The notes: generated from the sequence alone by a model not told the origin. 64,000 nt of DNA from Gaiellaceae bacterium (GCA_050698015.1 JBOHAU010000019.1:12012-76011), one strand, 5' to 3'. Shown: positions 10,655 to 38,815, counted from the stretch's first letter. Made by a program: numbers and translations.

Positions 10655-12838
10655 ATGGCCGCCGTGCTCCGGGACGCCGCTCACAGCGCGCACGGCCGAG
10701 CGCGGAGCGGATTCCGGGTCGCCGGCCTGAGCGTCCCAGCGGCGCTCACCGCTGCCGGAGTCCTGCTCCTGACGGTCGTCGTGCGTTACGTGCTGGCGCT
10801 CGACCAGACGGCGCCGTGGCTGATGGGCGACGAGTTGCGCTACGCGGAGATGGCGAAGAGTTTTCTCGAGGAGGGCAGGCTCCTCTTCCGCGAGCAGTTC
10901 ACGTCGTTCGCGAGCGCCTATCCGGCGTTGATTTCGCCCGGCTGGGCTGCGTCGGACATCGAGACCGCGTACGAGTTCGCGAAAGCCGTGAACGTCGTGC
11001 TCATGACCTGCTCGGCGGTTGTCGTCTTCTTCTGGACGCGCAGGCTGGGGACGACGGCGTTCGCCCTCGCGGCGGCCGGTCTCGTCCTCCTGATGCCGAC
11101 GTTCACGTACACGGGCATGCTCATGACCGAGAACGCCGCGGTCCCAGCGTTCCTGCTCGCGGCGTTCCTGATGGCCGTCGCGCTAGAACGCGGAAGCGTC
11201 GCCCTGCAGCTGGCCGCGATCGGGGCGATCGCGCTGGCGGCGCTGCTACGTGTGCAGGTTGCGACGCTCGCGCTCGTCTTCCCGGCGGCGATCGTCCTCG
11301 ACGCCTGGCTCGCGCGCTGCGCCGGCACCCGGCCCGTTCGGGAGTCGCTCCGGCGGTTCGTCCCGGCCGTCGTCGCCCTCGCGTCGGGGGCGCTGCTGTA
11401 CCTCGTCTACATCGTGCTGTCCGGCGGATCCCTCACTAGTGGCCTAGGTGCGTACGACGCCGTCGCGGGAGCCGACTACGACGTTTTGGACGTCGTACGC
11501 TGGGCGGTCTGGCACGTCGGGGAACTAGTCCTGTCCGTCGGCGTTCTGCCGGCGCTCGCGTTGGTCGCGCTGGTCGCGTCCGCGGCGCGGCAAGGAGGGC
11601 TCGCGTCGCCGGCCGAGCGTGCATTCGTCGCTGTCGGAGCCATCGCGACGGTCGCCTTCGTCCTCCAGGCTGCAGCGTTCGCGTCGCGCTTCTCGGGGCG
11701 CATCGAGGAGCGGTACATGGTGTACACCTCGCCACTCCTCCTCATGGCTCTGGTCGTCTGGGTAGCGCGGGAACGAGAGCGAGCGCGGCTCGCGGCCGTG
11801 GTCGGCTGCGCCGCCTGCGCGCTCTTTGCGTTGACGATCCCGTTCGAGCGCCTCTTCAACGTCGGCCTCTTCGGAGACACGTTCGGACTGATCCCGTTCA
11901 TGCGGCTCTCGACGTTCCTCGACGCCGGAGTGGAGGACCTGCGCATCGTCGTGGCCGCGGGCCTCGCGGCCGCCGTTGCGCTCTTTCTCGCCCTCCCCTG
12001 GAAGGTCGCCCGCGTCGCACTCCCGAGCGTCGTCGCCGGCTTTCTTCTCCTTTCCGGCTACACGGTCCACGGCACGATCCGCGACCAGTCGCAGGCAACG
12101 AGGGCGGCGCAGGGCGCCGCAGATCCGAGCTGGGTCGACCACGCCGTCGGCGACGACGCAAGGGTCGGGTTCGTCTACGGCCCGAACGTGAGCTCGAACC
12201 CGCACCTCCTCTGGCAGGCAGAGTTTTGGAACCGGAGCATTGACAACGTCTACGTACACGGCACCGATCCCGACCCCTCCTACTCGAACGACGAGATCCG
12301 GATCGACGCGCATGGTCGGCTAGTGCCGAAGGAGGCGGGAGACGCGCAGCTGGAGGAGCCGTACCTGGTCGCCGACCCGGCGCTCGGGATCGTCGGCGAG
12401 GTCGTTGCCCAGCCTGGGCCTATCGCGCTGATCCAGCTCGATCCTCCCGCTCGCGTCGAGCAGACGCTCGACGGTGTGTACGGCGATGGATGGTCGGGGC
12501 CCAACGCTGCGCTGAACCGGTACGCCCCGCTGAGTGGTGGCGCTCGGCGGATCAAGGTGGACGTCTCGCGGGCCGGCTGGGACGGCCCAGATCTCCCTGG
12601 CCGCGTCGAGATCCGCGTCGGCCCCCTGCGGATGATGGGAAGCGATCCGTCCCTTGCCCGCGTAACCGCCGCGCGGCAATGGACTGTCCACTCGAAGACC
12701 GCCCGGAGTTTCGTGCTGCCGTTGCCTCCCGCCCCATTCCGCGTCGAGGTGAGCGTCACACCGACCTTCTCCCCCGCCCAGTTCGGCCACGGCGATGCCC
12801 GGCAGCTCGGCGCCCAGCTGGGGTTCTCGCCCGCATGA
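10655..12838 (+). CDS. GT-C fold glycosyltransferase (ArnT/PMT, GT39-like) with C-terminal extracytoplasmic domain
   Basis: Track ORF 10442 trimmed to the ATG at 10655, because the upstream 71 aa is an Arg-rich shadow over 9570..10610. First-loop motif LMGDELRYAEMAKSFLEEGRLLF, at least 10 TM segments, then a roughly 270-aa soluble C-terminal domain. Confidence 0.7.
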   Translation: MAAVLRDAAHSAHGRARSGFRVAGLSVPAALTAAGVLLLTVVVRYVLALDQTAPWLMGDELRYAEMAKSFLEEGRLLFREQFTSFASAYPALISPGWAASDIETAYEFAKAVNVVLMTCSAVVVFFWTRRLGTTAFALAAAGLVLLMPTFTYTGMLMTENAAVPAFLLAAFLMAVALERGSVALQLAAIGAIALAALLRVQVATLALVFPAAIVLDAWLARCAGTRPVRESLRRFVPAVVALASGALLYLVYIVLSGGSLTSGLGAYDAVAGADYDVLDVVRWAVWHVGELVLSVGVLPALALVALVASAARQGGLASPAERAFVAVGAIATVAFVLQAAAFASRFSGRIEERYMVYTSPLLLMALVVWVARERERARLAAVVGCAACALFALTIPFERLFNVGLFGDTFGLIPFMRLSTFLDAGVEDLRIVVAAGLAAAVALFLALPWKVARVALPSVVAGFLLLSGYTVHGTIRDQSQATRAAQGAADPSWVDHAVGDDARVGFVYGPNVSSNPHLLWQAEFWNRSIDNVYVHGTDPDPSYSNDEIRIDAHGRLVPKEAGDAQLEEPYLVADPALGIVGEVVAQPGPIALIQLDPPARVEQTLDGVYGDGWSGPNAALNRYAPLSGGARRIKVDVSRAGWDGPDLPGRVEIRVGPLRMMGSDPSLARVTAARQWTVHSKTARSFVLPLPPAPFRVEVSVTPTFSPAQFGHGDARQLGAQLGFSPA

Positions 12839-21139: not shown

Positions 21140-22136
21140 CTCCGCGGAGTGCGATCGGCCCGAGGATCAGGAACGGAAGGAAGGTCAGCACGTGGATGAC
21201 GACGGCGCCCGAGAGCGCACGCGCAGAATCAACCCCGTATGGCTCGAGGGCGACGAGCGTCGCGGCCTCGAAGATCCCGACCGAGGCCGGGAGGGCAGGG
21301 AGTAGCAGGGAGAACGTCGTTGCGACGGCGACGAGGATTCCCGCGTCTAGACCAAGCTCGAGGCCGGCACCGCGCAGGGCAAGGGTGTACGAGAGGGACA
21401 CTCCGAGCCAGACGAGGAGGCTGAGCGCGAACGCGGCGAGGGCCAGCCGGGCGTTCCGGAGGCCGGCGAGGCCGCGCACGATTCCTTCCGCTGCGACTTC
21501 GGTCCGCACCCGGCTGAAGCCTGGCAGGCGTGTGAGCGGGCGCAGGAGGAAGCCGAGCGGCCGGCTGCCGAACCGCGCAAGCACATAGATCGACACGCCG
21601 AGTGCGATCAGGAGCACGGCGAGGAGCAGCGTCGCACCCCGCAACCAGCTAACGGGGGGCGCGAACGGAACGGCGACGAAGAGCAGAAGCAGCAACGCGA
21701 TCGAGTCCTGCAGCCGTTCGGTGACGATCGTGCCGAGCGCCACCGAACGTGAGGTCCGCGCTTCCCGGTGGAGGACGACGACGCGCGCGATCTCACCGAG
21801 GCGGAGAACGGGCATGAGGCTGGTGAGAAAGTCACCGACGAGGCTTGCGCGGACCAAGGGCCGAACGGGCGGTCGCGCGCCGGGTTCGAAGAGGATCCGC
21901 CAGCGCAGGACGCGGACGGCGTAGGCCGCGACGAACACGGCGAACGACGCCAAATACCACACCGGCTCGCCGCTGCTAAGTGCGTCCAGGAACGCGTCGA
22001 AGTCGATGTCGCGCAGCACGACGTACGTGAGGACGATCGAGAGGGCGAGCCCGGCGAGCAGGAGCAGGGGACGAAGTCTGGGAAGCACGATGCCGTACGC
22101 TACGGCGTCGCCGGGGGGAACACGATGGCTGTCCAT
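21030..22136 (-). CDS. UPF0104 / lysyl-PG-synthase-TM-like 'flippase-like' integral membrane protein
   Basis: 368 aa, about 8 TM. Has VLRDIDFDAFLDAL, RVLRWRILF and GDFLTSLMPVLRLGEIARVVVL, typical of this family. The 3' tail overlaps the convergent wzt by 110 nt, and the start overlaps the divergent gene at 22125 by 12 nt. Confidence 0.7.
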   Translation of the reverse strand: MDSHRVPPGDAVAYGIVLPRLRPLLLLAGLALSIVLTYVVLRDIDFDAFLDALSSGEPVWYLASFAVFVAAYAVRVLRWRILFEPGARPPVRPLVRASLVGDFLTSLMPVLRLGEIARVVVLHREARTSRSVALGTIVTERLQDSIALLLLLFVAVPFAPPVSWLRGATLLLAVLLIALGVSIYVLARFGSRPLGFLLRPLTRLPGFSRVRTEVAAEGIVRGLAGLRNARLALAAFALSLLVWLGVSLSYTLALRGAGLELGLDAGILVAVATTFSLLLPALPASVGIFEAATLVALEPYGVDSARALSGAVVIHVLTFLPFLILGPIALRGVTKRPERLTAPSRLAKPGRATSRPPAARTRGRGPAG

Positions 22137-24386
22137 ACAGAATCCGGCTCACGCCATTCCGTCGGGGCGCCGGTGCACGCGGTCGCCCGCGTCGAGCACC
22201 GCCGTCGCGCCGAGGCGTTCGTCGCAGCCCTCGTCGCCCTCGCCGCGCTCGTTCTGGCGAGCCTGGCGCTGAAGGTCTGGCGGGGCGACCTCGGCGTGCC
22301 GTTCTCGTACCGCGAGGAGGCCCAGTACTACCTGATGCTCGCCAAGTCGATCGACGATCACGGCGGCTACTTCGAGAATCCGAGCCTCGGCGCGCCGTTC
22401 GGGCAGGAGCTCTACGACTTCGCGGTTGGGACGGACCGGCTGAACCTCGACCTGATCCGGCTGCTCGGCCTCTTCGGGACCCCGGCGGCGGCGGTCAACC
22501 TCTTTTTCCTCCTGACGTTCCCGCTCGCCGCCGTCGCCGCCTACGCCGTCTTCCGGCTCCTCGGCGTGCCGCGGGCGGCCGGTGCGGTCAGCTCACTGCT
22601 CTTTGCCCTTGCGCCGTACCACTTCGAACGCGGCGAGGGGAACCTCTTCCTGTCCGCCTACTGGGTCGTGCCGCTCGGCGCCTGGCTGGTCTTGGCGACG
22701 CTCGCCGGCGAGCCGCTCTTCCGACCTAGGGAAGGCGTCACCGGGTGGAGGCGGTACGCCTCCGGGCGGACGCTGATGACGGTCGCCTTCTGCCTAGTAA
22801 TCGCGTCCACGGGGGTCTACTACGCGGTGTTCACGGCGCTACTGCTGGCCGGAGCGGCGGTGATCGCGCTCGTCGCCCGGGTGGGCCGGGCGGCCGTGGC
22901 CAACGCGGCCATGTGCCTTGCGCTCATCCTCGCCGTGCTCCTCGTGCACCTGGCGCCGAGCATCGCCTATCGTGCCGATCACGGACCCAACGCGGCCGCC
23001 GAGCGCCACCCGCGCGAGTCAGAGCTCTACGCGCTCAAGCTGAGCGATCTGGTGTTCCCGATCGACCTGCACCGCCTCGAGCCGCTGGCCCGCTTCACGG
23101 CTGAGTACAAGGCCGCGACGCCGATCCGCTCCGAGTCCATGGGCCTCGGGCCGGTCGCGGCCGCAGGTTTCATCGCGCTGCTCGTCATCGCCCTCGCCGT
23201 CCTCGTGGGCCGGTCCATGAAAGCCCCGCCGCTCCTCCGGCATGCGGCCGCCGCCGCCGCTCTTGCGTTTGTCATCGGGACCGTCGGGGGGCTCTCGACG
23301 ATCATCGCCGAGCTCGTCACCCCGCAGATTCGCGCCTGGAACCGCATCTCGATCTTCATCGCGTTCTTCGGGTTCCTCGCCGTCGCTGTCGGTCTCGGTG
23401 CCGTCGGTCGTCGCTTGGGGCCGGACCTCGTTCGGCGGGCGGCATTCGCGGGCGTGCTCGCCGCTGTTCTCGTCTTCGGGCTCTACAACCAAGTCACGTA
23501 CGCGCACGTCCCGCCCTATGAGCTGGCCGGCTCCTGGGCGCAGGACCGGAACTTCGTCGACGAGATCGACCGCCGCCTCCCTGAGGGCGCTTCGGTGTTC
23601 CAGCTGCCCTACCTCGGCTTCCCGGAAAGCGGGCGGCTGTTCGAGATGTACGAGAACGACCTCCTCCGCGGGTACCTGCACTCGGACGACCTCCGCTGGA
23701 GCTTCGGGGCGACGAAGGGGAGGCCGGAGGACTGGGCCGACGATCTGGCGGCCATGCCGGTCTCGACGGTGCTCGACGCCGCGGCGGCAACCGGGTTCGC
23801 CGGCCTTTGGATCGACCGCTTCGGCTACGCCGATCGCGCCCGTGCGCTCGAGCAGGAGCTGAGCGCCCGGCTCGGCGTCGCGCCGCTCGTGAGCGAGTCC
23901 GGGCGGCATGCGTTCTTCGACCTGAGCGACTACGGCAGGCGGCTCGAGGCCGAGCACTCGCCCGCCGGGCTCGCCGCGTTCCGGCGCGCAGTCCTCCAGC
24001 CTTTTGGCTTCGAGCGGAGGGGGTTCGTGCCGCTGGAGCGCCGCCAGGGCGAATGGTTCGCCTGGGCGGACGCCAGCGACGCCGAACTGCGCATCGTCAA
24101 TCCCACGGACACGCAGCGGGCCGCCACCTTCGAGGCTACGCTCGAACGGGTCGGCGGGACGCCCGCCGAAGTCGTCGCCTCCTTCCCGGGCGCTCCGCCG
24201 GTCACGTACCGGACGCCGGTGCGGATCAGTCGGCAGCTGTCGTTGCCGCCGGGCGAGACGATCGTCCGGTTCTCGACCACTGCGCCCGAGGTCCTGGAGC
24301 AAAAGGCCAATCGCTGGCGGCCGCACTACTTCCAACTCGCGGGACTGACGGTCACCGACGCCGCCTTCAGCGAGTTCGTGCGATAG
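22125..24386 (+). CDS. Large polytopic membrane protein (about 11 TM) with C-terminal extracytoplasmic domain; candidate GT-C-like transferase, function unknown
   Basis: Track ORF 21768 trimmed to the ATG at 22125. The early loop is FSYREEAQYYLMLAKSIDDHGGYFENPSLGAPFG. Many TM segments up to about residue 470, then a soluble domain (VFQLPYLGFPESGRLFEMYENDLLRGYLHSDDLRWSFGATKGR). I cannot name a family with confidence. Confidence 0.55.
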   Translation: MAVHTESGSRHSVGAPVHAVARVEHRRRAEAFVAALVALAALVLASLALKVWRGDLGVPFSYREEAQYYLMLAKSIDDHGGYFENPSLGAPFGQELYDFAVGTDRLNLDLIRLLGLFGTPAAAVNLFFLLTFPLAAVAAYAVFRLLGVPRAAGAVSSLLFALAPYHFERGEGNLFLSAYWVVPLGAWLVLATLAGEPLFRPREGVTGWRRYASGRTLMTVAFCLVIASTGVYYAVFTALLLAGAAVIALVARVGRAAVANAAMCLALILAVLLVHLAPSIAYRADHGPNAAAERHPRESELYALKLSDLVFPIDLHRLEPLARFTAEYKAATPIRSESMGLGPVAAAGFIALLVIALAVLVGRSMKAPPLLRHAAAAAALAFVIGTVGGLSTIIAELVTPQIRAWNRISIFIAFFGFLAVAVGLGAVGRRLGPDLVRRAAFAGVLAAVLVFGLYNQVTYAHVPPYELAGSWAQDRNFVDEIDRRLPEGASVFQLPYLGFPESGRLFEMYENDLLRGYLHSDDLRWSFGATKGRPEDWADDLAAMPVSTVLDAAAATGFAGLWIDRFGYADRARALEQELSARLGVAPLVSESGRHAFFDLSDYGRRLEAEHSPAGLAAFRRAVLQPFGFERRGFVPLERRQGEWFAWADASDAELRIVNPTDTQRAATFEATLERVGGTPAEVVASFPGAPPVTYRTPVRISRQLSLPPGETIVRFSTTAPEVLEQKANRWRPHYFQLAGLTVTDAAFSEFVR

Positions 24387-31642: not shown

Positions 31643-32514
31643 ACGGCGCAGTCGTCCTCATGGCCTACGGCTCGCCCAGCCGGATCGAGGACATCCGTCC
31701 CTACCTCGAGGACATCCGCGAGGGCCGTCCGGTCTCCGACGCGGCGGTCGAGGAGCTGACGGAGCGCTACCGCCGGATCGGCGGCCGCTCCCCGCTGGAC
31801 GACGTCACCGAGCGCCAGCGCGCAGCGCTCGAGGGCGAGCTCGGCATGCCCGTCTATGTCGGGATGAAGCACTGGCGCCCCCGGATCGCCGAGGCCGTGC
31901 AAGCCGCGCTCGATGCCGGCGCCGAGCTCCTCGTCGGGATCGTCCTTGCGCCCCACTACTCCGCGCTGTCGATCGCCGGCTACCGCAAGCGGCTCGAGCA
32001 AGCCGTGGACGGCCGCGTCGAGGTGCGCTTCGTCGAGAGCTGGCACGACCACGAGCCGTTCATCGGGGTACTCGCCGACCGTGTCCGGGGTGCCGATGCC
32101 CACGTGGTCTTCACCGCGCACTCGCTGCCGGAGCGGATCCTCGCGATGGGCGACCCGTACAAGGACCAGCTGCTCGAGACATCCCGACTGACGGCGGATC
32201 GGGCCGGCATCGAGAGCTGGTCATTCGCGTTTCAGAGCGCGAGCGCAACGGGCGAGCCCTGGCTGGGCCCGGACATCCTCGAAGAGCTGGACGCCCTGCA
32301 CGCGCGCGGCGTCCGCAAGGTTCTCGTCGCTCCCGTCGGGTTCGTCTCCGACCATCTGGAGATCCTCTGGGACCTCGACGTGGAGGCGCGCGAGCGCGCC
32401 GGGGAGCTCGGGCTCGAGCTCGACCGGATCGAGTCGCTCAACGACGACCCGGCGTTCGTCGCCGCGCTCGCCGGGCTGGTGCGACAGACCCTTCGGGTAC
32501 GGTCGGCGGCGTGA
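31639..32514 (+). CDS. hemH: Ferrochelatase (likely coproporphyrin-type CpfC if the host is a high-GC Gram-positive)
   Basis: Track ORF 31486 trimmed to the TTG at 31639 (TTGA overlap with the hemE stop); ATG at 31660 is the alternative. Has VVLMAYGSP, RYRRIGGRSPL, LAPHYSALS, FTAHSLP and VGFVSDHLEILWDLD. Confidence 0.85.
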   Translation: MNGAVVLMAYGSPSRIEDIRPYLEDIREGRPVSDAAVEELTERYRRIGGRSPLDDVTERQRAALEGELGMPVYVGMKHWRPRIAEAVQAALDAGAELLVGIVLAPHYSALSIAGYRKRLEQAVDGRVEVRFVESWHDHEPFIGVLADRVRGADAHVVFTAHSLPERILAMGDPYKDQLLETSRLTADRAGIESWSFAFQSASATGEPWLGPDILEELDALHARGVRKVLVAPVGFVSDHLEILWDLDVEARERAGELGLELDRIESLNDDPAFVAALAGLVRQTLRVRSAA

Positions 32515-32783
32515 CGACTCGAAGCTGCCCTGACTGGCCCCGGCTGCTCGAGATCGCGCCGGATCTCCACTTCAAGCACTACATGGCCGGTGAGGCGCAG
32601 CTGCCGGCCGAAGCGCTGGCGAGTCTCCCCGGAGTCGCGCTCGACTCGGCCGAGCTTTGCGCGGATCTCGACCACAACGTCTTCAACCCGGAGCACACCG
32701 ACGAGCGGATCGCGGAGGCGCTGCGTGCGACGCACTGGTTCGACCTCCGCGAGTGGATCACGTCCGGTCCGGGCGCGGCCTAA
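32511..32783 (+). CDS. Hypothetical 90-aa protein translationally coupled to hemH
   Basis: Tail of track ORF 31437..32783. The GTG at 32511 forms a GTGA overlap with the hemH stop. Composition is balanced and protein-like (VTTRSCPDWPRLLEIAPDLHFKHYMAGEAQLPAEALASLPGVALDSAELCADLDHNVFNPEHTDERIAEALRATHWFDLREWITSGPGAA). No family recognised. Confidence 0.5.
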   Translation: MTTRSCPDWPRLLEIAPDLHFKHYMAGEAQLPAEALASLPGVALDSAELCADLDHNVFNPEHTDERIAEALRATHWFDLREWITSGPGAA

Positions 32784-34565: not shown

Positions 34566-34583
34566 CGGGGTAGTCTCCCCGCC

Positions 34584-35135
34584 GTGGCCAGCGTCATCGT
34601 TCCGTTTCGCGCGGAATCTGCGAAAAGCCGTCTCGAGCCACTCGACGAAGAGGCTCGCAGCGAGCTCGCGCACCGGATGCTCGCGAACGTGATCACCGCG
34701 GCGACGGTCGTCGGGCCGACGATCCTCGTCACGGAGCCCGATGCGTCCTGCGCGCGCGCCGTCGCTGCCGAGCACGGGGCGACGGTCGTGGACGATCCCG
34801 GCGACGGACAGGGCGCGGCAGTCAGTGCCGGCCTTGCCGGGGTCTCCGAATGGCCGGTGCTGGTCGTCAACGCCGACCTCCCCGACGTCCAGCCGCGGGA
34901 CCTCCTCGCCTTGCTCGGGACACTTCCGGCGAACGGGATCGCGATTGCGCCCGCTCGCGACGGGACGACCAATGCCCTCGCCCTTGCGAAGCCGGGCCTC
35001 TTCGAGCCGCTCTACGGGCGGGGCAGCGCCGCCCGCTTCCGGGCGCACGCAAAGGAGCTCGGGGTCGAGGTCGCGGAGCTGAACGCGCCGGCACTCGCTC
35101 GGGACGTGGACACGCTCGCAGCGTTCGTACGGTGA
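34584..35135 (+). CDS. cofC: Phosphoenolpyruvate/2-phospho-L-lactate guanylyltransferase (CofC/FbiD), F420 biosynthesis
   Basis: 183 aa, GTG start. Has VIVPFRAESAKSRL, PVLVVNADLPDV and ARDGTTNALAL, the typical CofC pattern. Confidence 0.8.
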   Translation: MASVIVPFRAESAKSRLEPLDEEARSELAHRMLANVITAATVVGPTILVTEPDASCARAVAAEHGATVVDDPGDGQGAAVSAGLAGVSEWPVLVVNADLPDVQPRDLLALLGTLPANGIAIAPARDGTTNALALAKPGLFEPLYGRGSAARFRAHAKELGVEVAELNAPALARDVDTLAAFVR

Positions 35136-36052
35136 ACCTCACCGTCCTTAGCGGCGGCGTCGGCGGGGCTCGGTTCGTGCAGGGCCTGCTCGATGCGGTC
35201 GACCCGACCGACGTCACGGTGATCGGAAACGTCGGCGACGACCTCGAGGTCTACGGGCTCCACGTCTCGCCCGACATCGACACCCTGCTCTATACCCTCG
35301 GCGGGCTCGCCGACGAGGATCGTGGCTGGGGGAGGGCCGACGAGACCTGGAACGCCCTGGAGACAGCTGATTCCCTCGGCGCCGAGGCGTGGTTCCAGCT
35401 CGGCGACAAGGATCTCGGCCTTCACCTCGCCCGCGCCGAGGCGCTGGAGCGAGGCGAGCGCCTCTCGGACATCACCCAGCGCTTCGCCCGGATCCTCGGG
35501 ATCACCGCCCGGATCCTGCCCGCGACCGATGAACGGCTCCGGACGTGGGTGCAGACCGACGAGGGAGAGCTGCCGTTCCAGGAGTGGTTCGTCCACCGCC
35601 GGCACGAGCCGGAGGTGCTCGGCGTCCGCTTCGAGGGCGCCGAGACCGCACGGCCGGCTCCGGGCGTGCTCGACGCGCTCGCCGAGGCCGACCTGATCGT
35701 CATCGCCCCCAGCAATCCGTTTGTCAGCATCGGACCGGTCCTGGCCGTCCAGGAGATCCGGGAAGCGCTCACCAACCGACGTGTCCCCTCCGTCGCCGTC
35801 AGTCCGCTGATCGGCGGCAAGGCGGTGAAGGGCCCGGCCGACCGGATGCTGAATCGCCTCAAAGGCGGCACGGGCCCGCTCCAAGTAACAGACTGTTACA
35901 AGGGGCTGATCGACGCGCTGGTCTACGACGAGGCCGACGGCGAGGTGGAGCTGGACGTCCGCCCGATCGTGACGAACACGCTGATGACCGACGCCGCCGC
36001 CCGCCGGCGGCTCGCCGAGGCCGCGTTGGAGGCCGCCGCGGCGCTGCGATGA
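35132..36052 (+). CDS. cofD: 2-phospho-L-lactate (or EPPG):Fo transferase (CofD/FbiA), F420 biosynthesis
   Basis: Track ORF 34850 trimmed to the GTG at 35132 (GTGA overlap with the cofC stop). Has LTVLSGGVGGARF, NVGDDLEVYGLHVSPDIDT, WFQLGDKDL, IAPSNPFVSIGP and SPLIGGKAVKGPA. Confidence 0.9.
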   Translation: MNLTVLSGGVGGARFVQGLLDAVDPTDVTVIGNVGDDLEVYGLHVSPDIDTLLYTLGGLADEDRGWGRADETWNALETADSLGAEAWFQLGDKDLGLHLARAEALERGERLSDITQRFARILGITARILPATDERLRTWVQTDEGELPFQEWFVHRRHEPEVLGVRFEGAETARPAPGVLDALAEADLIVIAPSNPFVSIGPVLAVQEIREALTNRRVPSVAVSPLIGGKAVKGPADRMLNRLKGGTGPLQVTDCYKGLIDALVYDEADGEVELDVRPIVTNTLMTDAAARRRLAEAALEAAAALR

Positions 36053-36669
36053 GGATCGCGATCATCGGCGGCACCGGCGCGTTCGGACGCGCCCTCGCGG
36101 AGGGGGTCCACGCGCTCGGCGAGGAGGTCGTGATCGGCTCGCGCGACCCGTCGCGCGCGGCCGAGATTGCCGCCGTCATCGGCGTCGAGGGAACGGGCAA
36201 CGAGAAGTCGGTCGATGGCGCCGACCTGGTGGTGCTCGCCGTGCGCTCGAACGCCGCGCTGGCGACTGCACGCGGCCTCGCGCCGGTGCTCGGGACGACG
36301 CCGCTCCTCTGCGTCGCCAGCGACCTCACGTTCACCGACCGCGGAGTGCTCCCCGGCAGGCAGTCGTACTCGCTCGCGGAGCACGTCGACCGTATCGTCG
36401 AGGGACCCGTCGCCGCCGGCCTCCAGACATTGTCGGCCGCCCACCTGACATCGACCGAACCGCCGGAGGAAGACGTCCTCGTCTGCGGCGACGACCCGCG
36501 CGCGAAGGATCCCTCGCTGGAGCTCGCCGGCCGCCTCGTCACCGGCCGAGCGATCGACGCCGGTCCCCTGGCGAACGCGCGCGCGCTGGAGGGGATGACG
36601 GCGGTGATCCTCAACGTCAACCGCCGTTACAAGGCGCACGCAGGGATCAGGCTCGTCGGACTCCCGTGA
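36049..36669 (+). CDS. NADP-dependent oxidoreductase of the F420:NADP oxidoreductase (Fno/NpdG-like, F420_oxidored) family
   Basis: ATG at 36049 (ATGA overlap with the cofD stop). Has MRIAIIGGTGAFGRALA (Rossmann), VVIGSRD and DLVVLAVRS. 206 aa. Confidence 0.7.
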   Translation: MRIAIIGGTGAFGRALAEGVHALGEEVVIGSRDPSRAAEIAAVIGVEGTGNEKSVDGADLVVLAVRSNAALATARGLAPVLGTTPLLCVASDLTFTDRGVLPGRQSYSLAEHVDRIVEGPVAAGLQTLSAAHLTSTEPPEEDVLVCGDDPRAKDPSLELAGRLVTGRAIDAGPLANARALEGMTAVILNVNRRYKAHAGIRLVGLP

Positions 36670-37373
36670 CGATCACGGTTCTCCCCGTCGAGGGGATCCC
36701 GGAGGTGCGGGCTGGAGACGACCTCGCCGAGCTGATCCGCGACGTCGCCGAGCTCGAAGAGGGGGACGTCCTCGTCGTCGCCCAGAAGGTCGTCTCCAAG
36801 GCGGAGGGACGAGTCGTCCGGCTCGAAGAGGTCGAGGCGTCAAACCAGGCCGTAAAGCTCGCCGCCGAACGCGACCCGCGTGAGCTTGAGGTCGTCCTGC
36901 GCGAGGCGGCGCGGATCGTACGCAGCCGCCCGCCGCTCGTGATCGCCGAGACGCGGCACGGGTTCGTGTGCGCGTCGGCCGGGGTCGACCATTCGAACGC
37001 TCCCGAGCGGGACACGCTCGTCCTGCTCCCCGTCGATCCCGACGCCTCGGCCCGTCGCCTCTCCGAGAGCCTCGGCGTCGCGGTCATCGTCAGCGACTCC
37101 TTCGGCCGGCCGTTCCGGCAGGGAACCACGGACGTCGCGATCGGGGTCGCCGGCCTCGAGGCGCTGCTCGACCTGCGCGGCGTTCGCGATTGGACCGGCT
37201 ATGAGCTCCGCACGACGACGATCGCGGTTGCTGACGAGATCGCCGGCGCCGCAGAGCTCGTCATGGGCAAGACGGCCGGCATCCCCGCGGCGATCGTCCG
37301 TGGCCTCGATGTCGGCGGCGACGGCAGCGGCCGCGACCTCGTCATGCCCGCCGACCGCGACCTGTTTCGATGA
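36666..37373 (+). CDS. cofE: Coenzyme F420-0:L-glutamate ligase (CofE), stand-alone form without an FbiB-type C-terminal nitroreductase domain
   Basis: 235 aa, GTG start (GTGA overlap). Has EVRAGDDLAELI, GDVLVVAQKVVSKAEGR, THGFVCASAGVDHSN, VIVSDSFGRPFRQG and ADEIAGAAELVMGK. Confidence 0.85.
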   Translation: MTITVLPVEGIPEVRAGDDLAELIRDVAELEEGDVLVVAQKVVSKAEGRVVRLEEVEASNQAVKLAAERDPRELEVVLREAARIVRSRPPLVIAETRHGFVCASAGVDHSNAPERDTLVLLPVDPDASARRLSESLGVAVIVSDSFGRPFRQGTTDVAIGVAGLEALLDLRGVRDWTGYELRTTTIAVADEIAGAAELVMGKTAGIPAAIVRGLDVGGDGSGRDLVMPADRDLFR

Positions 37374-38815
37374 GCACCCGAAGCAAGCTCCACTTCGTCG
37401 CGTCGGTCCCGGAGCGCCTGATCCGGTCGACCGCGGCGCTGCTCGGCGGCGCCGTCCACGAGACGGCCCAGCTCTTGCTTCCCCGCCTGATCCGCGTCTC
37501 GCGCCTCTACGAGGTCAGCGCCAAGAACCTCCTCCGGATCCTGGTCGAGGGCGTCGGTGCGGTCGAGGGCTCCTCCACGGCTGATCCGAACGCGCCCGCC
37601 GCCGGCGAGATCGCCGTCCGGAAGGGCGCCGGCAACGTCGTCGAGCTCGGATCGTTCCTCGCGTTCGGCTTTTCACCGCTCTGGCTGCTCGCAGCGGCGT
37701 CGGACGTCACGCGGGGGTCTCGCGTCTACCTCCGCGAGCTCGTCGAGGAGCTGAAGGCCGCGCGAATCGTCGCCGAGGAGCTCGACGTCGGGTCGGTCGA
37801 CGAGCTGCTGGCCGTGCTCGAGGGCACCTCCGGCCGCACGGCGCGCCTGATCGACCTGCCCCCGCTCGAGCTCGAGGAGCTGCGGACCTCGCTCGCGGAG
37901 CTGCGCGCGGGCGCGTCCGAGCTCCCCTCGCAGGAGGAGCTCGCCCGCGTCTACCGGGGTTTGCGCCTCGAGGCGGTCAGCGAGGATCGCTCGCTGCTCG
38001 AGGTCTCGAGCGGGATCGGCTTGGCCTTCCTGCTCTCGGCGAAGAACGTCTCGCGCACGCACCTGGTCGCGCCGTACCGGAAAGACTGGGAGCCGCTTCG
38101 CGAGGAGGGGTTCGGCGCCTACGCCAGGCGCGTCGGTCGACCTTACGCCGAGGCCGTGGCCGGGCACTTCGACTCCGACCGGGAGACCTACACGCAGTGG
38201 CTCCTGACCCGGAACGACCCCGGGACCGAGTTCCGCTTCTGCGACGAGATGGAGGGCGGCTTCGGCTGGCAGGTCGACGAACGCATGGAGCGGACGTCGC
38301 ATGCAGTCGTCGCCGAGAACGGCGTCTGGCTCTTCGACCCGCTCGTCTGGGAGCCGGCGCTCGAGCGGATCGCTGAGCTCGGAAGGCCGGCCGGTGTGAT
38401 CCAACTGCTCGATCGCCACGAGCGCGACTCCGCCACCATCGCGGCGGCGCTCGGTGTCCCGCACTTCGCAGTGCCGCCCCACGACCTGCCGGGCTCGGGC
38501 ATCGAGCTCGTTCAAGTCGTGAGCTCGCGATTCTGGCGCGAGCTCGGCGCGTGGATCCCGAGCCGCCGGACGCTCGTTTGCGCGGACGCCCTCGGCTCGG
38601 CCGCCTACTTCCACGCCGCGAACGAGCCCATCGGCGTCCACCCCCTGCTTCGGCTGAAGCCGCCGCGAGTCCTCGCCCGCTACGAGCCCGAGCACATCCT
38701 CTGCGGCCACGGCGCGGGGGTTCACGGGCCGGATGCGCCACAAGCCCTTCGCGAGGCGCTCAGAACCGCGCGCCGCCGGCTGCCGCGAGCATTGGCGCAC
38801 GCGTTCAAGCGGTAG
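37370..38815 (+). CDS. Hypothetical 481-aa two-region protein, last gene of the F420 operon
   Basis: ATG at 37370 (ATGA overlap with the cofE stop). The N-terminal roughly 270 aa is helical and Leu/Glu/Arg-rich. The C-terminal roughly 190 aa (HAVVAENGVWLFDP...IQLLDRHERDSA...LVCADALGS...ILCGHGAGV) vaguely resembles a degenerate metallo-beta-lactamase-fold pattern. No family recognised with confidence. Confidence 0.6.
   Translation: MSTRSKLHFVASVPERLIRSTAALLGGAVHETAQLLLPRLIRVSRLYEVSAKNLLRILVEGVGAVEGSSTADPNAPAAGEIAVRKGAGNVVELGSFLAFGFSPLWLLAAASDVTRGSRVYLRELVEELKAARIVAEELDVGSVDELLAVLEGTSGRTARLIDLPPLELEELRTSLAELRAGASELPSQEELARVYRGLRLEAVSEDRSLLEVSSGIGLAFLLSAKNVSRTHLVAPYRKDWEPLREEGFGAYARRVGRPYAEAVAGHFDSDRETYTQWLLTRNDPGTEFRFCDEMEGGFGWQVDERMERTSHAVVAENGVWLFDPLVWEPALERIAELGRPAGVIQLLDRHERDSATIAAALGVPHFAVPPHDLPGSGIELVQVVSSRFWRELGAWIPSRRTLVCADALGSAAYFHAANEPIGVHPLLRLKPPRVLARYEPEHILCGHGAGVHGPDAPQALREALRTARRRLPRALAHAFKR

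What the first reader, a model, noticed from the sequence alone, without database searches (positions are those of the whole stretch)
34584..38815. F420 operon with stand-alone CofE, an embedded Fno/NpdG-like oxidoreductase and an unknown fifth gene, all chained by 4-nt overlaps
cofC(34584)-cofD(35132)-oxidoreductase(36049)-cofE(36666)-unknown(37370) are linked by GTGA, ATGA, GTGA and ATGA overlaps, so they are almost certainly co-translated. In most Actinomycetota, CofE is fused to a nitroreductase-like domain (FbiB) that reduces dehydro-F420-0, which is made when CofC/FbiD uses PEP. Here CofE is only 235 aa and lacks that domain. The Rossmann-type F420_oxidored-family protein inserted between cofD and cofE, and/or the 481-aa unknown, are candidates for the missing reduction step or for supplying an alternative substrate (2-phospho-lactate or 3-phosphoglycerate). 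Either would be an undescribed variant of the pathway.
Basis: partly seen in the sequence, partly recalled or inferred. Interest (0 to 1): 0.65.

Follow-up and report, generated by a model that had tools for sequence, protein, structure and literature searches.

The report
Gaiellaceae F420 operon with orphan fusion
This is the late-stage coenzyme F420 biosynthesis operon (cofC-cofD-fno-cofE) of a soil Gaiellaceae actinobacterium, in which the embedded oxidoreductase is most likely the usual NADPH-dependent F420-recharging enzyme; the unknown fifth gene is a fusion whose C-terminal half belongs to an unannotated metallo-beta-lactamase-fold family that lies next to deazaflavin genes in most related genomes.

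Summary
Five ORFs on the + strand (34584-38815) are joined by GTGA/ATGA/GTGA/ATGA overlaps. Four are CofC, CofD, an Fno-family protein and a stand-alone 235-aa CofE with no nitroreductase domain.

- cofC-cofD-fno-cofE is the standard layout in Gaiellales (about 70 of 80 loci).
- Stand-alone cofE next to fno or fgd is also common in Proteobacteria. A published review lists Fno and Fgd among genes drawn with F420 clusters.
- Gaiellales clusters that lack fno carry fgd nearby.
- The Fno-like protein aligns full length with both solved Fno structures and keeps the NADPH-binding residues.

Together this points to F420 reduction, not a biosynthetic step.

The 481-aa "unknown" is a fusion. Its N-terminal all-alpha module occurs alone in 68 loci and is never F420-linked. 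Its C-terminal module (about 195 aa) has a metallo-beta-lactamase fold, with HxHxDH replaced by an invariant DRHxRD. In 62 of 74 Gaiellales loci this C module lies within 10 kb of cofE, fbiC or a photolyase, in several different arrangements. It matches no Pfam, NCBIfam or PDB sequence, and I found no literature on it.

No FbiB-type reductase lies in the window or near any related cluster examined. Whole genomes could not be searched. The C module is the one new lead.

The parts
34584..35135 (+). cofC/fbiD: guanylyltransferase for 2-phospho-L-lactate or phosphoenolpyruvate (183 aa, GTG start)
   Evidence: TIGR03552 125 bits (cutoff 105) and PF01983. Homologous to the solved CofC/FbiD structures 7P97, 2I5E and 6BWG. 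It has Gly and Thr at the two positions (Mrhiz-CofC S162 and H145) that specify 3-phosphoglycerate use. 65-77% identical in syntenic Gaiellaceae loci.
35132..36052 (+). cofD/fbiA: transferase that joins the activated C3 acid to FO (306 aa, GTG start in a GTGA overlap)
   Evidence: TIGR01819 312 bits (cutoff 257) and PF01933. Conserved position in about 77 of 80 Gaiellales loci.
36049..36669 (+). fno/npdG-like NADPH:F420 oxidoreductase, a divergent Gaiellales clade (206 aa, ATG in an ATGA overlap)
   Evidence: PF03807. TIGR01915 over the full profile length at 110 bits, below the 149.8 cutoff. Full-length alignment to Tfu-FNO 5N2I (E 4e-25) and Af-Fno 1JAX/1JAY (E 5e-24). Conserved GGTG, GSR and R36 NADPH 2'-phosphate residues and the C-terminal NRRYKAHAGIR motif. 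Lies between cofD and cofE in about 70 of 80 Gaiellales loci.
36666..37373 (+). cofE: stand-alone F420-0:L-glutamate ligase (235 aa, GTG in a GTGA overlap), with no nitroreductase domain
   Evidence: TIGR01916 270 bits (cutoff 181) over the whole profile. Matches only positions 12-243 of the 449-position FbiB model NF009810. The stop codon follows the ligase domain directly. In 80 related loci the stop lies 0-7 codons after the end of the alignment.
37370..38815 (+). Fifth gene, 481 aa: a lineage-specific fusion of two independent protein families (ATG in an ATGA overlap with cofE)
   Evidence: No Pfam or NCBIfam hit. More than 100 full-length homologues at 64-94% identity. At the 50% cluster level only one full-length representative exists; all others are N-only or C-only proteins. 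AF2 model has mean pLDDT 88.
37370..38224 (+). N module (about residues 1-285): all-alpha domain of unknown fold with one hydrophobic segment (residues 90-108)
   Evidence: AF2 predicts an all-helical domain. No significant Foldseek match (best E 0.37, TM about 0.2). Occurs as a stand-alone protein of about 280-300 aa in 68 Gaiellales loci, none with cof genes within 8 kb. Its neighbours there are glutaredoxin-like, BolA-like, HtrA and ECF sigma genes, assigned by eye from the sequences.
38225..38815 (+). C module (about residues 286-481): degenerate metallo-beta-lactamase fold, the unannotated deazaflavin-linked family called 'unkC' here
   Evidence: Foldseek probability 1.00 to MBL-fold structures, best TM 0.68 to 2P97. 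HxHxDH is replaced by an invariant D-R-H-x-R-D; SHA, ADALGT, GVHP and GHG motifs are conserved. In 62 of 74 loci it lies within 10 kb of cofE, fbiC or a photolyase gene.

Best explanation
The locus is the late-stage coenzyme F420 biosynthesis operon of a Gaiellaceae bacterium (class Thermoleophilia, Actinomycetota).

Inferred from family membership:
- CofC activates a C3 acid (2-phospho-L-lactate or PEP, not 3-phosphoglycerate) with GTP.
- CofD transfers it to FO, which is made by an FbiC encoded elsewhere.
- The stand-alone CofE adds the gamma-glutamyl tail.

Inferred from homology, conserved residues and the pattern of replacement by fgd: the embedded Rossmann protein is a divergent but ordinary Fno. 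It loads the new cofactor with hydride from NADPH and is co-expressed with the pathway, as fno or fgd is in many other bacteria. It is not a biosynthetic reductase.

Shown by comparison: the fifth gene is a fusion specific to this subclade. Its N module is a widespread all-alpha protein with no F420 linkage. Its C module is a degenerate MBL-fold protein of about 195 aa. When that module occurs alone it sits beside cofE, fbiC or a photolyase gene in most Gaiellales genomes.

Inferred from what those neighbours share: the C module acts on or binds the deazaflavin FO, its precursors or a pathway intermediate. Two arginines replace metal ligands in its active-site motif, which suggests an anionic or phosphorylated ligand.

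Not resolved: how the lactyl moiety becomes saturated, either by a remote FbiE-type reductase or by direct use of 2-phospholactate.
For: - Gene identities and junctions.
- Lineage: 80 of 80 best loci are Gaiellaceae, Gaiellales or Thermoleophilia MAGs.
- cofC-cofD-fno-cofE is conserved in about 70 of 80 Gaiellales cofE loci, always with stand-alone CofE.
- Fno aligns full length with 5N2I and 1JAX/1JAY and keeps the NADPH-binding T9, S31, R32 and R36 equivalents.
- About 20 mostly proteobacterial loci have fno-cofE-cofD-(cofC)-fbiC and about 9 have fgd-cofE-cofD. Three embedded proteobacterial Fnos tested pass the TIGR01915 cutoff at 177-208 bits.
- The five Gaiellales cofE loci without fno where enough downstream DNA is held (L109, L117, L126, L152, L159) share one downstream gene family, which in L117 scores as bona fide fgd (TIGR03554, 433 bits), with cofC and fbiC close by. 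A further locus, L163, has the same layout.
- The legend of Fig. 10 in PMC8498797 lists Fno and Fgd among the additional F420-related genes drawn with the biosynthetic clusters.
- CofC carries Gly and Thr at the 3-phosphoglycerate-determining positions (criteria from PMC8764529).
- Fusion nature of the fifth gene.
- MBL fold of the C module.
- Linkage of the C module: 12 fused after cofE; 24 stand-alone downstream of cofE, 4 of them abutting it; 23 next to fbiC; 3 directly downstream of a class I photolyase (4-nt overlap in L316). Only 4 unlinked loci have at least 8.7 kb of flank on both sides.
Against: - The Fno-like protein scores below the curated TIGR01915 cutoff (110 vs 149.8 bits). The two other Gaiellales homologues tested score 133-134 bits. 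The clade also replaces the 'VPW/VPF' segment of bona fide Fnos with 'VRS/TKS'. A modified specificity cannot be excluded.
- No activity was measured.
- The linkage of the C module comes from related genomes, so the arrangements are not fully independent events. The fbiC arrangement is convergent, not co-transcribed.
- An MBL fold with a degenerate metal motif predicts no clear chemistry.
- The antenna cofactor of the linked photolyase (FO or folate) cannot be told from sequence.
- Presence or absence of a remote FbiE-type reductase in the genome could not be tested.
Confidence: 0.65

Rival explanations
1. The embedded Fno-like oxidoreductase is a biosynthetic enzyme. It would reduce dehydro-F420-0 (replacing the missing FbiB C-domain) or produce an alternative C3 substrate.
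For: It is translationally coupled between cofD and cofE and holds that position across Gaiellales. It belongs to a divergent clade that scores below the TIGR01915 cutoff and has a changed loop motif. No FbiB C-domain homologue lies near any Gaiellales cluster.
Against: It has full-length homology to two structurally characterised Fnos with conserved NADPH-binding residues. Bona fide Fnos occupy the equivalent position next to stand-alone cofE in many proteobacterial clusters. In other clusters, including the fno-less Gaiellales, that place is taken by Fgd, an unrelated TIM-barrel F420-reducing dehydrogenase. That swap makes sense only if the shared role is F420 reduction. Known dehydro-F420-0 reduction uses an FMN-dependent nitroreductase fold (PMC6450877), not a Rossmann NADP enzyme.
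Confidence: 0.07
2. The C-terminal MBL-fold module of the fifth gene is the missing pathway enzyme of organisms with stand-alone CofE. It would be the 'CofX' that yields saturated F420-0, or the supplier of 2-phospho-L-lactate.
For: It is recurrently linked to cofE, including four loci where a stand-alone unkC abuts cofE, and it is fused and overlapping with cofE in the window's clade. No FbiE lies near any Gaiellales cof or fbiC locus. CofX and CofB are acknowledged as unidentified (PMC6450877). The family is unannotated.
Against: An MBL fold without a flavin or nucleotide domain is not expected to act as a hydride-transfer reductase or a kinase. It is equally linked to fbiC and to a photolyase, which points to the FO head group rather than the lactyl tail. 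None of the proteobacterial stand-alone-cofE clusters examined has it, so it cannot be a general solution.
Confidence: 0.15
3. The fifth gene is a passenger with no role in F420 metabolism. The region downstream of cofE is simply a rearrangement hot spot, and the unkC linkage reflects inherited synteny within one order.
For: The N module is never F420-linked when alone. An alpha/beta-hydrolase gene is inserted between cofE and the fifth gene in several relatives. Downstream neighbours of cofE vary widely. Four unkC loci with full flanks have no deazaflavin gene nearby. All data come from one order.
Against: unkC is found in at least five distinct arrangements at three different kinds of deazaflavin locus (cofE, fbiC, photolyase). 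unkC proteins from different arrangements are only about 50-58% identical. Two compact loci cover roughly 1-2% of a 3-Mb genome (my estimate), which would not capture 84% of copies by drift. 4-nt start/stop overlaps with cofE (window, L283) and with the photolyase gene (L316) indicate co-expression.
Confidence: 0.2

Closest known systems
Proteobacterial-type F420 clusters (fno- or fgd-cofE-cofD-cofC-fbiC). I recall this type being described for Paracoccus denitrificans and Oligotropha carboxidovorans by Ney et al. 2017, a paper not held here. Seen directly in L182, L218, L177, L186 and others.
   Same: Stand-alone CofE, no linked nitroreductase, and an F420-reducing enzyme (Fno or Fgd) encoded inside the biosynthetic cluster (PMC8498797 Fig. 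10 legend).
   Different: Gene order differs (fno lies outside cofE rather than between cofD and cofE). fbiC is linked in those clusters but lies elsewhere in the fno-type Gaiellales. Those Fnos pass the TIGR01915 cutoff, whereas the Gaiellales clade does not. No unkC-like gene was detected in them.
Mycobacterial pathway FbiD / FbiA / FbiB / FbiC (PMC6450877, PMC7253369)
   Same: Homologous CofC/FbiD, CofD/FbiA and CofE/FbiB N-domain. Same phylum.
   Different: FbiB carries the C-terminal FMN-dependent nitroreductase domain that reduces dehydro-F420-0. Here CofE ends after the ligase domain, and the FbiB C-domain (4XOM sequence) has no homologue in the window or in about 300 related loci.
Thermomicrobium roseum pathway with stand-alone CofE plus a stand-alone nitroreductase FbiE (Braga et al. 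2020, as cited in PMC8498797 and PMC8764529)
   Same: A bacterial stand-alone CofE. This shows that an unfused CofE is already a described state.
   Different: That system has an identifiable FbiE homologue. None is linked here, and whether one exists elsewhere in the genome is untested.
3PG-F420 pathway of Mycetohabitans (CofC structure 7P97; PMC8764529)
   Same: Its CofC is the best PDB sequence match to the window CofC (E 3e-8). It is a pathway that needs no reduction step.
   Different: The diagnostic Ser (S162) and His (H145) are Gly and Thr in the window CofC, so a 3-phosphoglycerate route is not supported.
Small MBL-fold protein Ava_3068 (PDB 2P97) and the metallo-beta-lactamase superfamily
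   Same: The C module has the same overall alpha-beta/beta-alpha fold and size (TM 0.68, rmsd 3.7 A over about 200 residues).
   Different: There is no detectable sequence similarity. The HxHxDH metal motif is replaced by an invariant DRHxRD. Function is unknown for both proteins.

Membership tests
CofC/FbiD (TIGR03552) | Score above the curated equivalog cutoff over the full length | tested here: met
   125 bits vs cutoff 105; residues 4-179 match profile positions 2-182 of 196.
CofD/FbiA (TIGR01819) | Score above the curated equivalog cutoff over the full length | tested here: met
   311.7 bits vs cutoff 257.45; profile positions 2-300 of 301.
CofE, stand-alone (TIGR01916) | Full-length ligase domain above the cutoff, ending without a further domain | tested here: met
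   269.9 bits vs cutoff 180.65; profile positions 2-244 of 244. The TGA stop follows directly.
FbiB (bifunctional ligase plus dehydro-F420-0 reductase) | C-terminal FMN-binding nitroreductase domain fused to the ligase | tested here: not met
   The NF009810 match covers only positions 12-243 of 449 and is below its cutoff (240.7 vs 304). tblastn with the 4XOM sequence finds nothing in the window at E<10.
FbiE (stand-alone dehydro-F420-0 reductase) | A homologue of the FbiB C-domain encoded in the genome | not testable with these tools
   None is present in the 64-kb window or within 8-10 kb of cof, fbiC or unkC loci in about 300 related loci.
Fno / NpdG (TIGR01915) | Score above the curated equivalog cutoff | tested here: not met
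   110.4 bits vs cutoff 149.8, although the alignment spans profile positions 1-220. Two other Gaiellales homologues score 133-134 bits; three proteobacterial cluster-embedded Fnos score 177-208 bits.
Fno / NpdG (TIGR01915) | Fno architecture and NADPH 2'-phosphate-binding residues (GGTG Thr, Ser-Arg after strand 2, and Arg/Lys four residues later) | tested here: met
   Full-length alignments to 5N2I and 1JAX/1JAY. G7-G8-T9-G10 and G30-S31-R32 are invariant in alignment A4, and R36 is present. The residue roles are from my recollection of the Fno structure papers.
Fno / NpdG (TIGR01915) | NADPH-dependent reduction of F420 | not testable with these tools
   Needs an enzyme assay.
3PG-type CofC | Ser at Mrhiz-CofC position 162 and His at position 145 (PMC8764529) | tested here: not met
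   The window has Gly (YGRGS) and Thr (RDGTTNAL) at these positions. This is my manual reading of the motifs against 7P97 and 6BWG; the HMMER alignment near the indel is ambiguous.
Metallo-beta-lactamase superfamily (C module of the fifth gene) | MBL alpha-beta/beta-alpha sandwich fold | tested here: met
   AF2 pLDDT is above 90 over most of residues 290-470. 317 Foldseek matches have E<=0.001; the 50 listed are all MBL-fold entries, with TM up to 0.68.
Metallo-beta-lactamase superfamily (C module of the fifth gene) | HxHxDH metal-binding motif and sequence-profile membership | tested here: not met
   The motif is D348-R349-H350-E351-R352-D353 and is invariant in the family. There is no Pfam hit: one of 22 members hits Lactamase_B_5 at E 0.12. 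A profile search of PDB finds no MBL.

The most novel reading that the evidence does not exclude
The MBL-fold C module ('unkC') is a previously unrecognised component of deazaflavin metabolism in Thermoleophilia. It could be an enzyme or carrier acting on FO, its precursor or a pathway intermediate. At the extreme it could be the factor that lets organisms with stand-alone CofE and no FbiE make saturated F420 (the unidentified 'CofX' or 'CofB' function).
Probability: 0.2. Interest if true: 0.8.

Novelty: new variant of a known kind. Interest (0 to 1): 0.45.

Why it matters
Gaiellales appear here in many soil and environmental metagenome bins, and I found no paper on their F420 biology. The locus shows that this early-branching actinobacterial order keeps the unfused, archaeal/proteobacterial-type CofE, with Fno built into the operon. 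This bears on the published statement that cofE fused with fbiE in Actinobacteria (PMC8498797).

Two steps in F420 biosynthesis remain open: the origin of 2-phospholactate (CofB), and dehydro-F420 reduction in organisms without FbiB or FbiE (CofX) (PMC6450877). The survey made here identifies one concrete, testable candidate family. It is small, unannotated and has an MBL fold. It travels with cofE, fbiC and photolyase genes. If it acts on FO or F420, it adds a new part to a cofactor pathway that is also of interest for biocatalysis. If it does not, the locus is an ordinary F420 operon.

Tried and rejected
- An exact look-up of the fifth protein's contig found nothing on record.
- The first genome scan with the window's C module alone gave 138 pattern matches but no confirmed relative. 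A 22-sequence alignment was too diverse to yield a search pattern. A 12-sequence alignment worked.
- I could not search for a stand-alone FbiE in Gaiellales genomes. The only option was tblastn with the FbiB C-domain against the roughly 300 loci held, which found nothing.
- Ney et al. 2017 and Braga et al. 2020 are not held. Their content is cited only through PMC8498797 and PMC8764529.
- Sequence-profile searches of the C module against Pfam (22 members at E up to 10) and PDB gave only noise. Database sources call its relatives 'hypothetical protein'.
- Foldseek on the N module alone gave no meaningful match. Its fusion partners in other proteins are heterogeneous (histidine kinase, Zn ribbon, M28 peptidase, aconitase) and uninformative.
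- The promoter/terminator scan found nothing above the shuffle expectation.
- The 3-phosphoglycerate route was rejected on the CofC diagnostic residues.
- The photolyase antenna type could not be decided: the protein is equally similar to the E. coli (folate) and A. nidulans (8-HDF) enzymes.
- My first GC3-based gene filter missed the cof genes and merged PolX with an antisense extension over cofC. I corrected this by homology to L001.

Full report
**1. Observation**

The window has about 70% G+C. Five + strand ORFs lie at 34584-35135, 35132-36052, 36049-36669, 36666-37373 and 37370-38815. The junctions read GTGA, ATGA, GTGA and ATGA.

NCBIfam and Pfam identify the genes as follows:
- CofC: TIGR03552, 125 bits, cutoff 105.
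- CofD: TIGR01819, 312 bits, cutoff 257.
- An F420_oxidored/npdG-like protein: TIGR01915 over the full length, but 110 bits against a cutoff of 149.8.
- CofE: TIGR01916, 270 bits, cutoff 181.
- The 481-aa protein: no Pfam or NCBIfam hit.

CofE matches only the N-terminal half (positions 12-243 of 449) of the bifunctional FbiB model, and it stops right after the ligase domain.

The 4-nt overlaps are not special. 11 of 33 same-strand junctions in the window have them. They show operon packing.

Upstream, a PolX gene runs divergently (32916 to about 34571, − strand), preceded by hemE and hemH. Downstream are a K+-channel-like gene, a phytase-like gene and a GGDEF gene. The first 30 kb is a glycan-biosynthesis region. 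The window contains no fbiC, fgd, PPOX-class, photolyase or FbiB C-domain homologue.

**2. Lineage and conservation**

The fifth protein and CofE both retrieve almost only Gaiellaceae, Gaiellales or Thermoleophilia metagenome-assembled genomes. In 80 cofE loci, about 70 have cofC-cofD-fno-cofE. CofE is always stand-alone: the stop lies 0-7 codons after the end of the alignment. The four-gene core is therefore the standard Gaiellales layout.

Six cofE loci lack fno (L109, L117, L126, L143, L152, L159). In the five with enough downstream DNA, cofC lies a few kb downstream on the opposite strand, and they share one downstream gene family. In L117 that family scores as a bona fide fgd (TIGR03554, 433 bits, cutoff 420). 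In L117 the neighbouring gene is a CofGH/FbiC reading frame that carries a TIGR03668 PPOX-class domain; in L109 and L159 a separate ORF of about 130 aa, not scanned, follows fbiC. One fbiC locus, L163, has the same layout.

**3. The Fno-like protein**

It aligns end to end with both structurally characterised Fnos: Thermobifida fusca 5N2I (E 4e-25) and Archaeoglobus fulgidus 1JAX/1JAY (E 5e-24). It keeps the GGTG Thr, the Ser-Arg pair and a downstream Arg. From my recollection of the Fno structure papers, these bind the NADPH 2'-phosphate. It also keeps the C-terminal NRRYKAHAGIR motif. At the position of Af-Fno His133 it has Gln, as do several Fnos that pass the curated cutoff.

A scan with FbiC brought in 66 non-Gaiellales loci. 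About 20 have fno-cofE-cofD-(cofC)-fbiC and about 9 have fgd-cofE-cofD, all with stand-alone cofE and none with an FbiB C-domain homologue. Three of those embedded Fnos were scanned and score 177-208 bits on TIGR01915. The legend of Fig. 10 in PMC8498797 lists Fno and Fgd among the additional F420-related genes drawn with the biosynthetic clusters.

Two unrelated F420-reducing enzymes alternate at these clusters, including within Gaiellales. The shared role is therefore cofactor reduction. I conclude the gene is a divergent Fno (about 0.75). The low score and a changed 'VPW' to 'VRS' segment leave some room for altered specificity.

**4. Which C3 substrate, and where is the reductase?**

In PMC8764529, 3-phosphoglycerate use depends on Ser162 and His145 of Mycetohabitans CofC. 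By my reading of the motifs, the window CofC has Gly and Thr at those positions, so a 3PG route is not supported. The same paper shows that sequence or CofC assays cannot separate 2-PL from PEP, and that CofD acts as a filter.

I validated the Mtb FbiB C-domain sequence against PDB 4XOM (identical over the 204 aligned residues). I used it in tblastn against the window and about 2.3 Mb of related loci, then against the fbiC and unkC loci. There was no hit. No FbiE is linked to any Gaiellales deazaflavin locus. Whether one exists elsewhere in these genomes could not be tested.

This gap is not peculiar to the window. PMC6450877 states that the origin of 2-PL (CofB) is unknown and postulates an unidentified reductase (CofX) for archaea and some bacteria.

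**5. The fifth gene is a fusion**

Full-length homologues (64-94% identity, about 480 aa) are numerous. They follow cofE only in the window's subclade, sometimes with an alpha/beta-hydrolase gene inserted between. At the 50%-identity cluster level only one full-length representative exists. All other relatives are N-only (about 280-300 aa) or C-only (about 200 aa) proteins (alignment).

*N module (residues 1 to about 285).* It is all-alpha with one hydrophobic segment and no structural neighbour. As a stand-alone gene in 68 Gaiellales loci it never has cof genes within 8 kb. Its neighbours there look like glutaredoxin-like, BolA-like, HtrA and ECF-sigma genes, assigned by eye from the sequences.

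*C module (about residues 286-481).* It is confidently predicted (pLDDT above 90) and has a metallo-beta-lactamase fold (Foldseek probability 1.0; best TM 0.68 to 2P97). The HxHxDH motif is an invariant D-R-H-x-R-D. Other invariant motifs are SHA, ADALGT, GVHP and GHG. No Pfam, NCBIfam or PDB sequence match exists, and sources call it hypothetical.

**6. The C module travels with deazaflavin genes**

A scan with a C-module alignment returned 80 Thermoleophilia loci, nearly all labelled Gaiellaceae or Gaiellales. I classified the 73 new ones plus L316, 74 in all:

| Arrangement | Loci |
|---|---|
| Fused to the N module, right after cofE | 12 |
| Stand-alone, downstream of cofC-cofD-fno-cofE | 24 (4 abut cofE, 6 within 1.2 kb, 14 at 1.2-10 kb) |
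| Next to fbiC | 23 (21 convergent within 1 kb) |
| Directly downstream of a class I CPD photolyase gene | 3 |
| No deazaflavin gene nearby | 12 (only 4 have at least 8.7 kb of flank on both sides) |

In L316 the photolyase gene and unkC overlap by 4 nt. Between arrangement types the proteins are only about 50-58% identical, so this is not one recent synteny block.

cofD and fbiC both handle FO, and some class I photolyases use FO as antenna (my knowledge; antenna type undetermined here). FO is thus the likely common denominator. That points to a role with the deazaflavin head group or its precursors rather than the lactyl tail. The two arginines in place of metal ligands suggest an anionic or phosphorylated ligand. 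This is inference. No chemistry is established, and a hydride-transfer or kinase role is not what this fold predicts.

**7. Verdict**

The locus is an ordinary F420 late-pathway operon of a lineage whose F420 biology is undescribed. It has a stand-alone CofE, a state already known from archaea, Proteobacteria and Thermomicrobia, and an embedded Fno, a known kind of co-location.

Its main candidate (Fno as the missing reductase) is unlikely. Its second candidate is half right: only the C-terminal MBL-fold module has a credible connection to the pathway.

That module is an unannotated family linked to cofE, fbiC and photolyase genes. I found no literature linking an MBL-fold protein to F420 biosynthesis. 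It is the new and testable element.

Noticed in passing
L125:4079-5134 (+), and 23 other Gaiellales loci directly downstream of cofE: A 351-aa protein with an unknown N-terminal half and a class II aldolase/adducin domain (PF00596, residues 196-281; weak MtnB-like NCBIfam hits) immediately follows cofE in 24 of 80 loci. From memory, in Methanocaldococcus the lactate for F420 was traced to lactaldehyde made by a class II (fuculose-1-phosphate) aldolase. If so, this could be a lead on 2-phospholactate supply. It is not present in the window.
   Followed up: partly
L117:11512-15779 (also L109, L126, L152, L159, L163): A variant Gaiellales F420 locus without fno: cofD-cofE, a GGDEF/GAF gene, fgd on the minus strand (TIGR03554, 433 bits in L117), cofC on the minus strand, then fbiC. 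In L117 the fbiC reading frame carries a TIGR03668 PPOX-class F420-dependent oxidoreductase domain; in L109 and L159 a separate ORF of about 130 aa, not scanned, follows fbiC. A split-barrel flavin/deazaflavin reductase attached to the FO synthase is itself a conceivable dehydro-F420 reductase candidate.
   Followed up: partly
L316:8679-10615 (also L298 and L305): A class I CPD photolyase gene (441 aa) overlaps by 4 nt the start of a stand-alone unkC gene (204 aa). Some database proteins (P0282, P0284; 410 aa) read as photolyase-fragment::unkC fusions, probably gene-calling or frameshift artefacts.
   Followed up: partly
L002:9348-10004, and equivalent gaps of about 650 nt in L003, L004, L005, L009, L010, L013: In L002 an alpha/beta-hydrolase gene (218 aa, Abhydrolase_1) is inserted between cofE and the fused fifth gene, overlapping both. 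The other listed loci show a gap of the same size that I did not annotate.
   Followed up: no
window 32511-32783 (+): A 90-aa ORF overlapping the hemH stop belongs, by position and size, to a roughly 93-aa family conserved just upstream of cofC (or of PolX) in 62 of 80 Gaiellales loci. No Pfam hit.
   Followed up: no
window 21768-24386 (+) and 10655-12838 (+): Two large ORFs with good coding statistics (872 aa and 727 aa) have no Pfam family at all. Both sit in or beside the glycosyltransferase-rich region.
   Followed up: no
window about 34571-34584: The predicted start codons of PolX (minus strand) and cofC (plus strand) are only about 12 nt apart. No sigma-70-like promoter is detectable. 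The two promoters must therefore lie inside each other's coding regions, or the transcripts are leaderless.
   Followed up: no
L001:9298-10004 (= L008 and L244; contig CAVRIT010000001.1): In the closest long contig, cofE is split into two overlapping ORFs (75 aa and 160 aa). This is a frameshift, most likely a long-read assembly error, or else a pseudogene.
   Followed up: no
window 1-30000: A long cluster of glycosyltransferases (GT2, GT4, GT8), a Wzx-like flippase, a DegT aminotransferase, an NAD epimerase/dehydratase and a methyltransferase: a cell-envelope glycan biosynthesis region unrelated to the finding.
   Followed up: no
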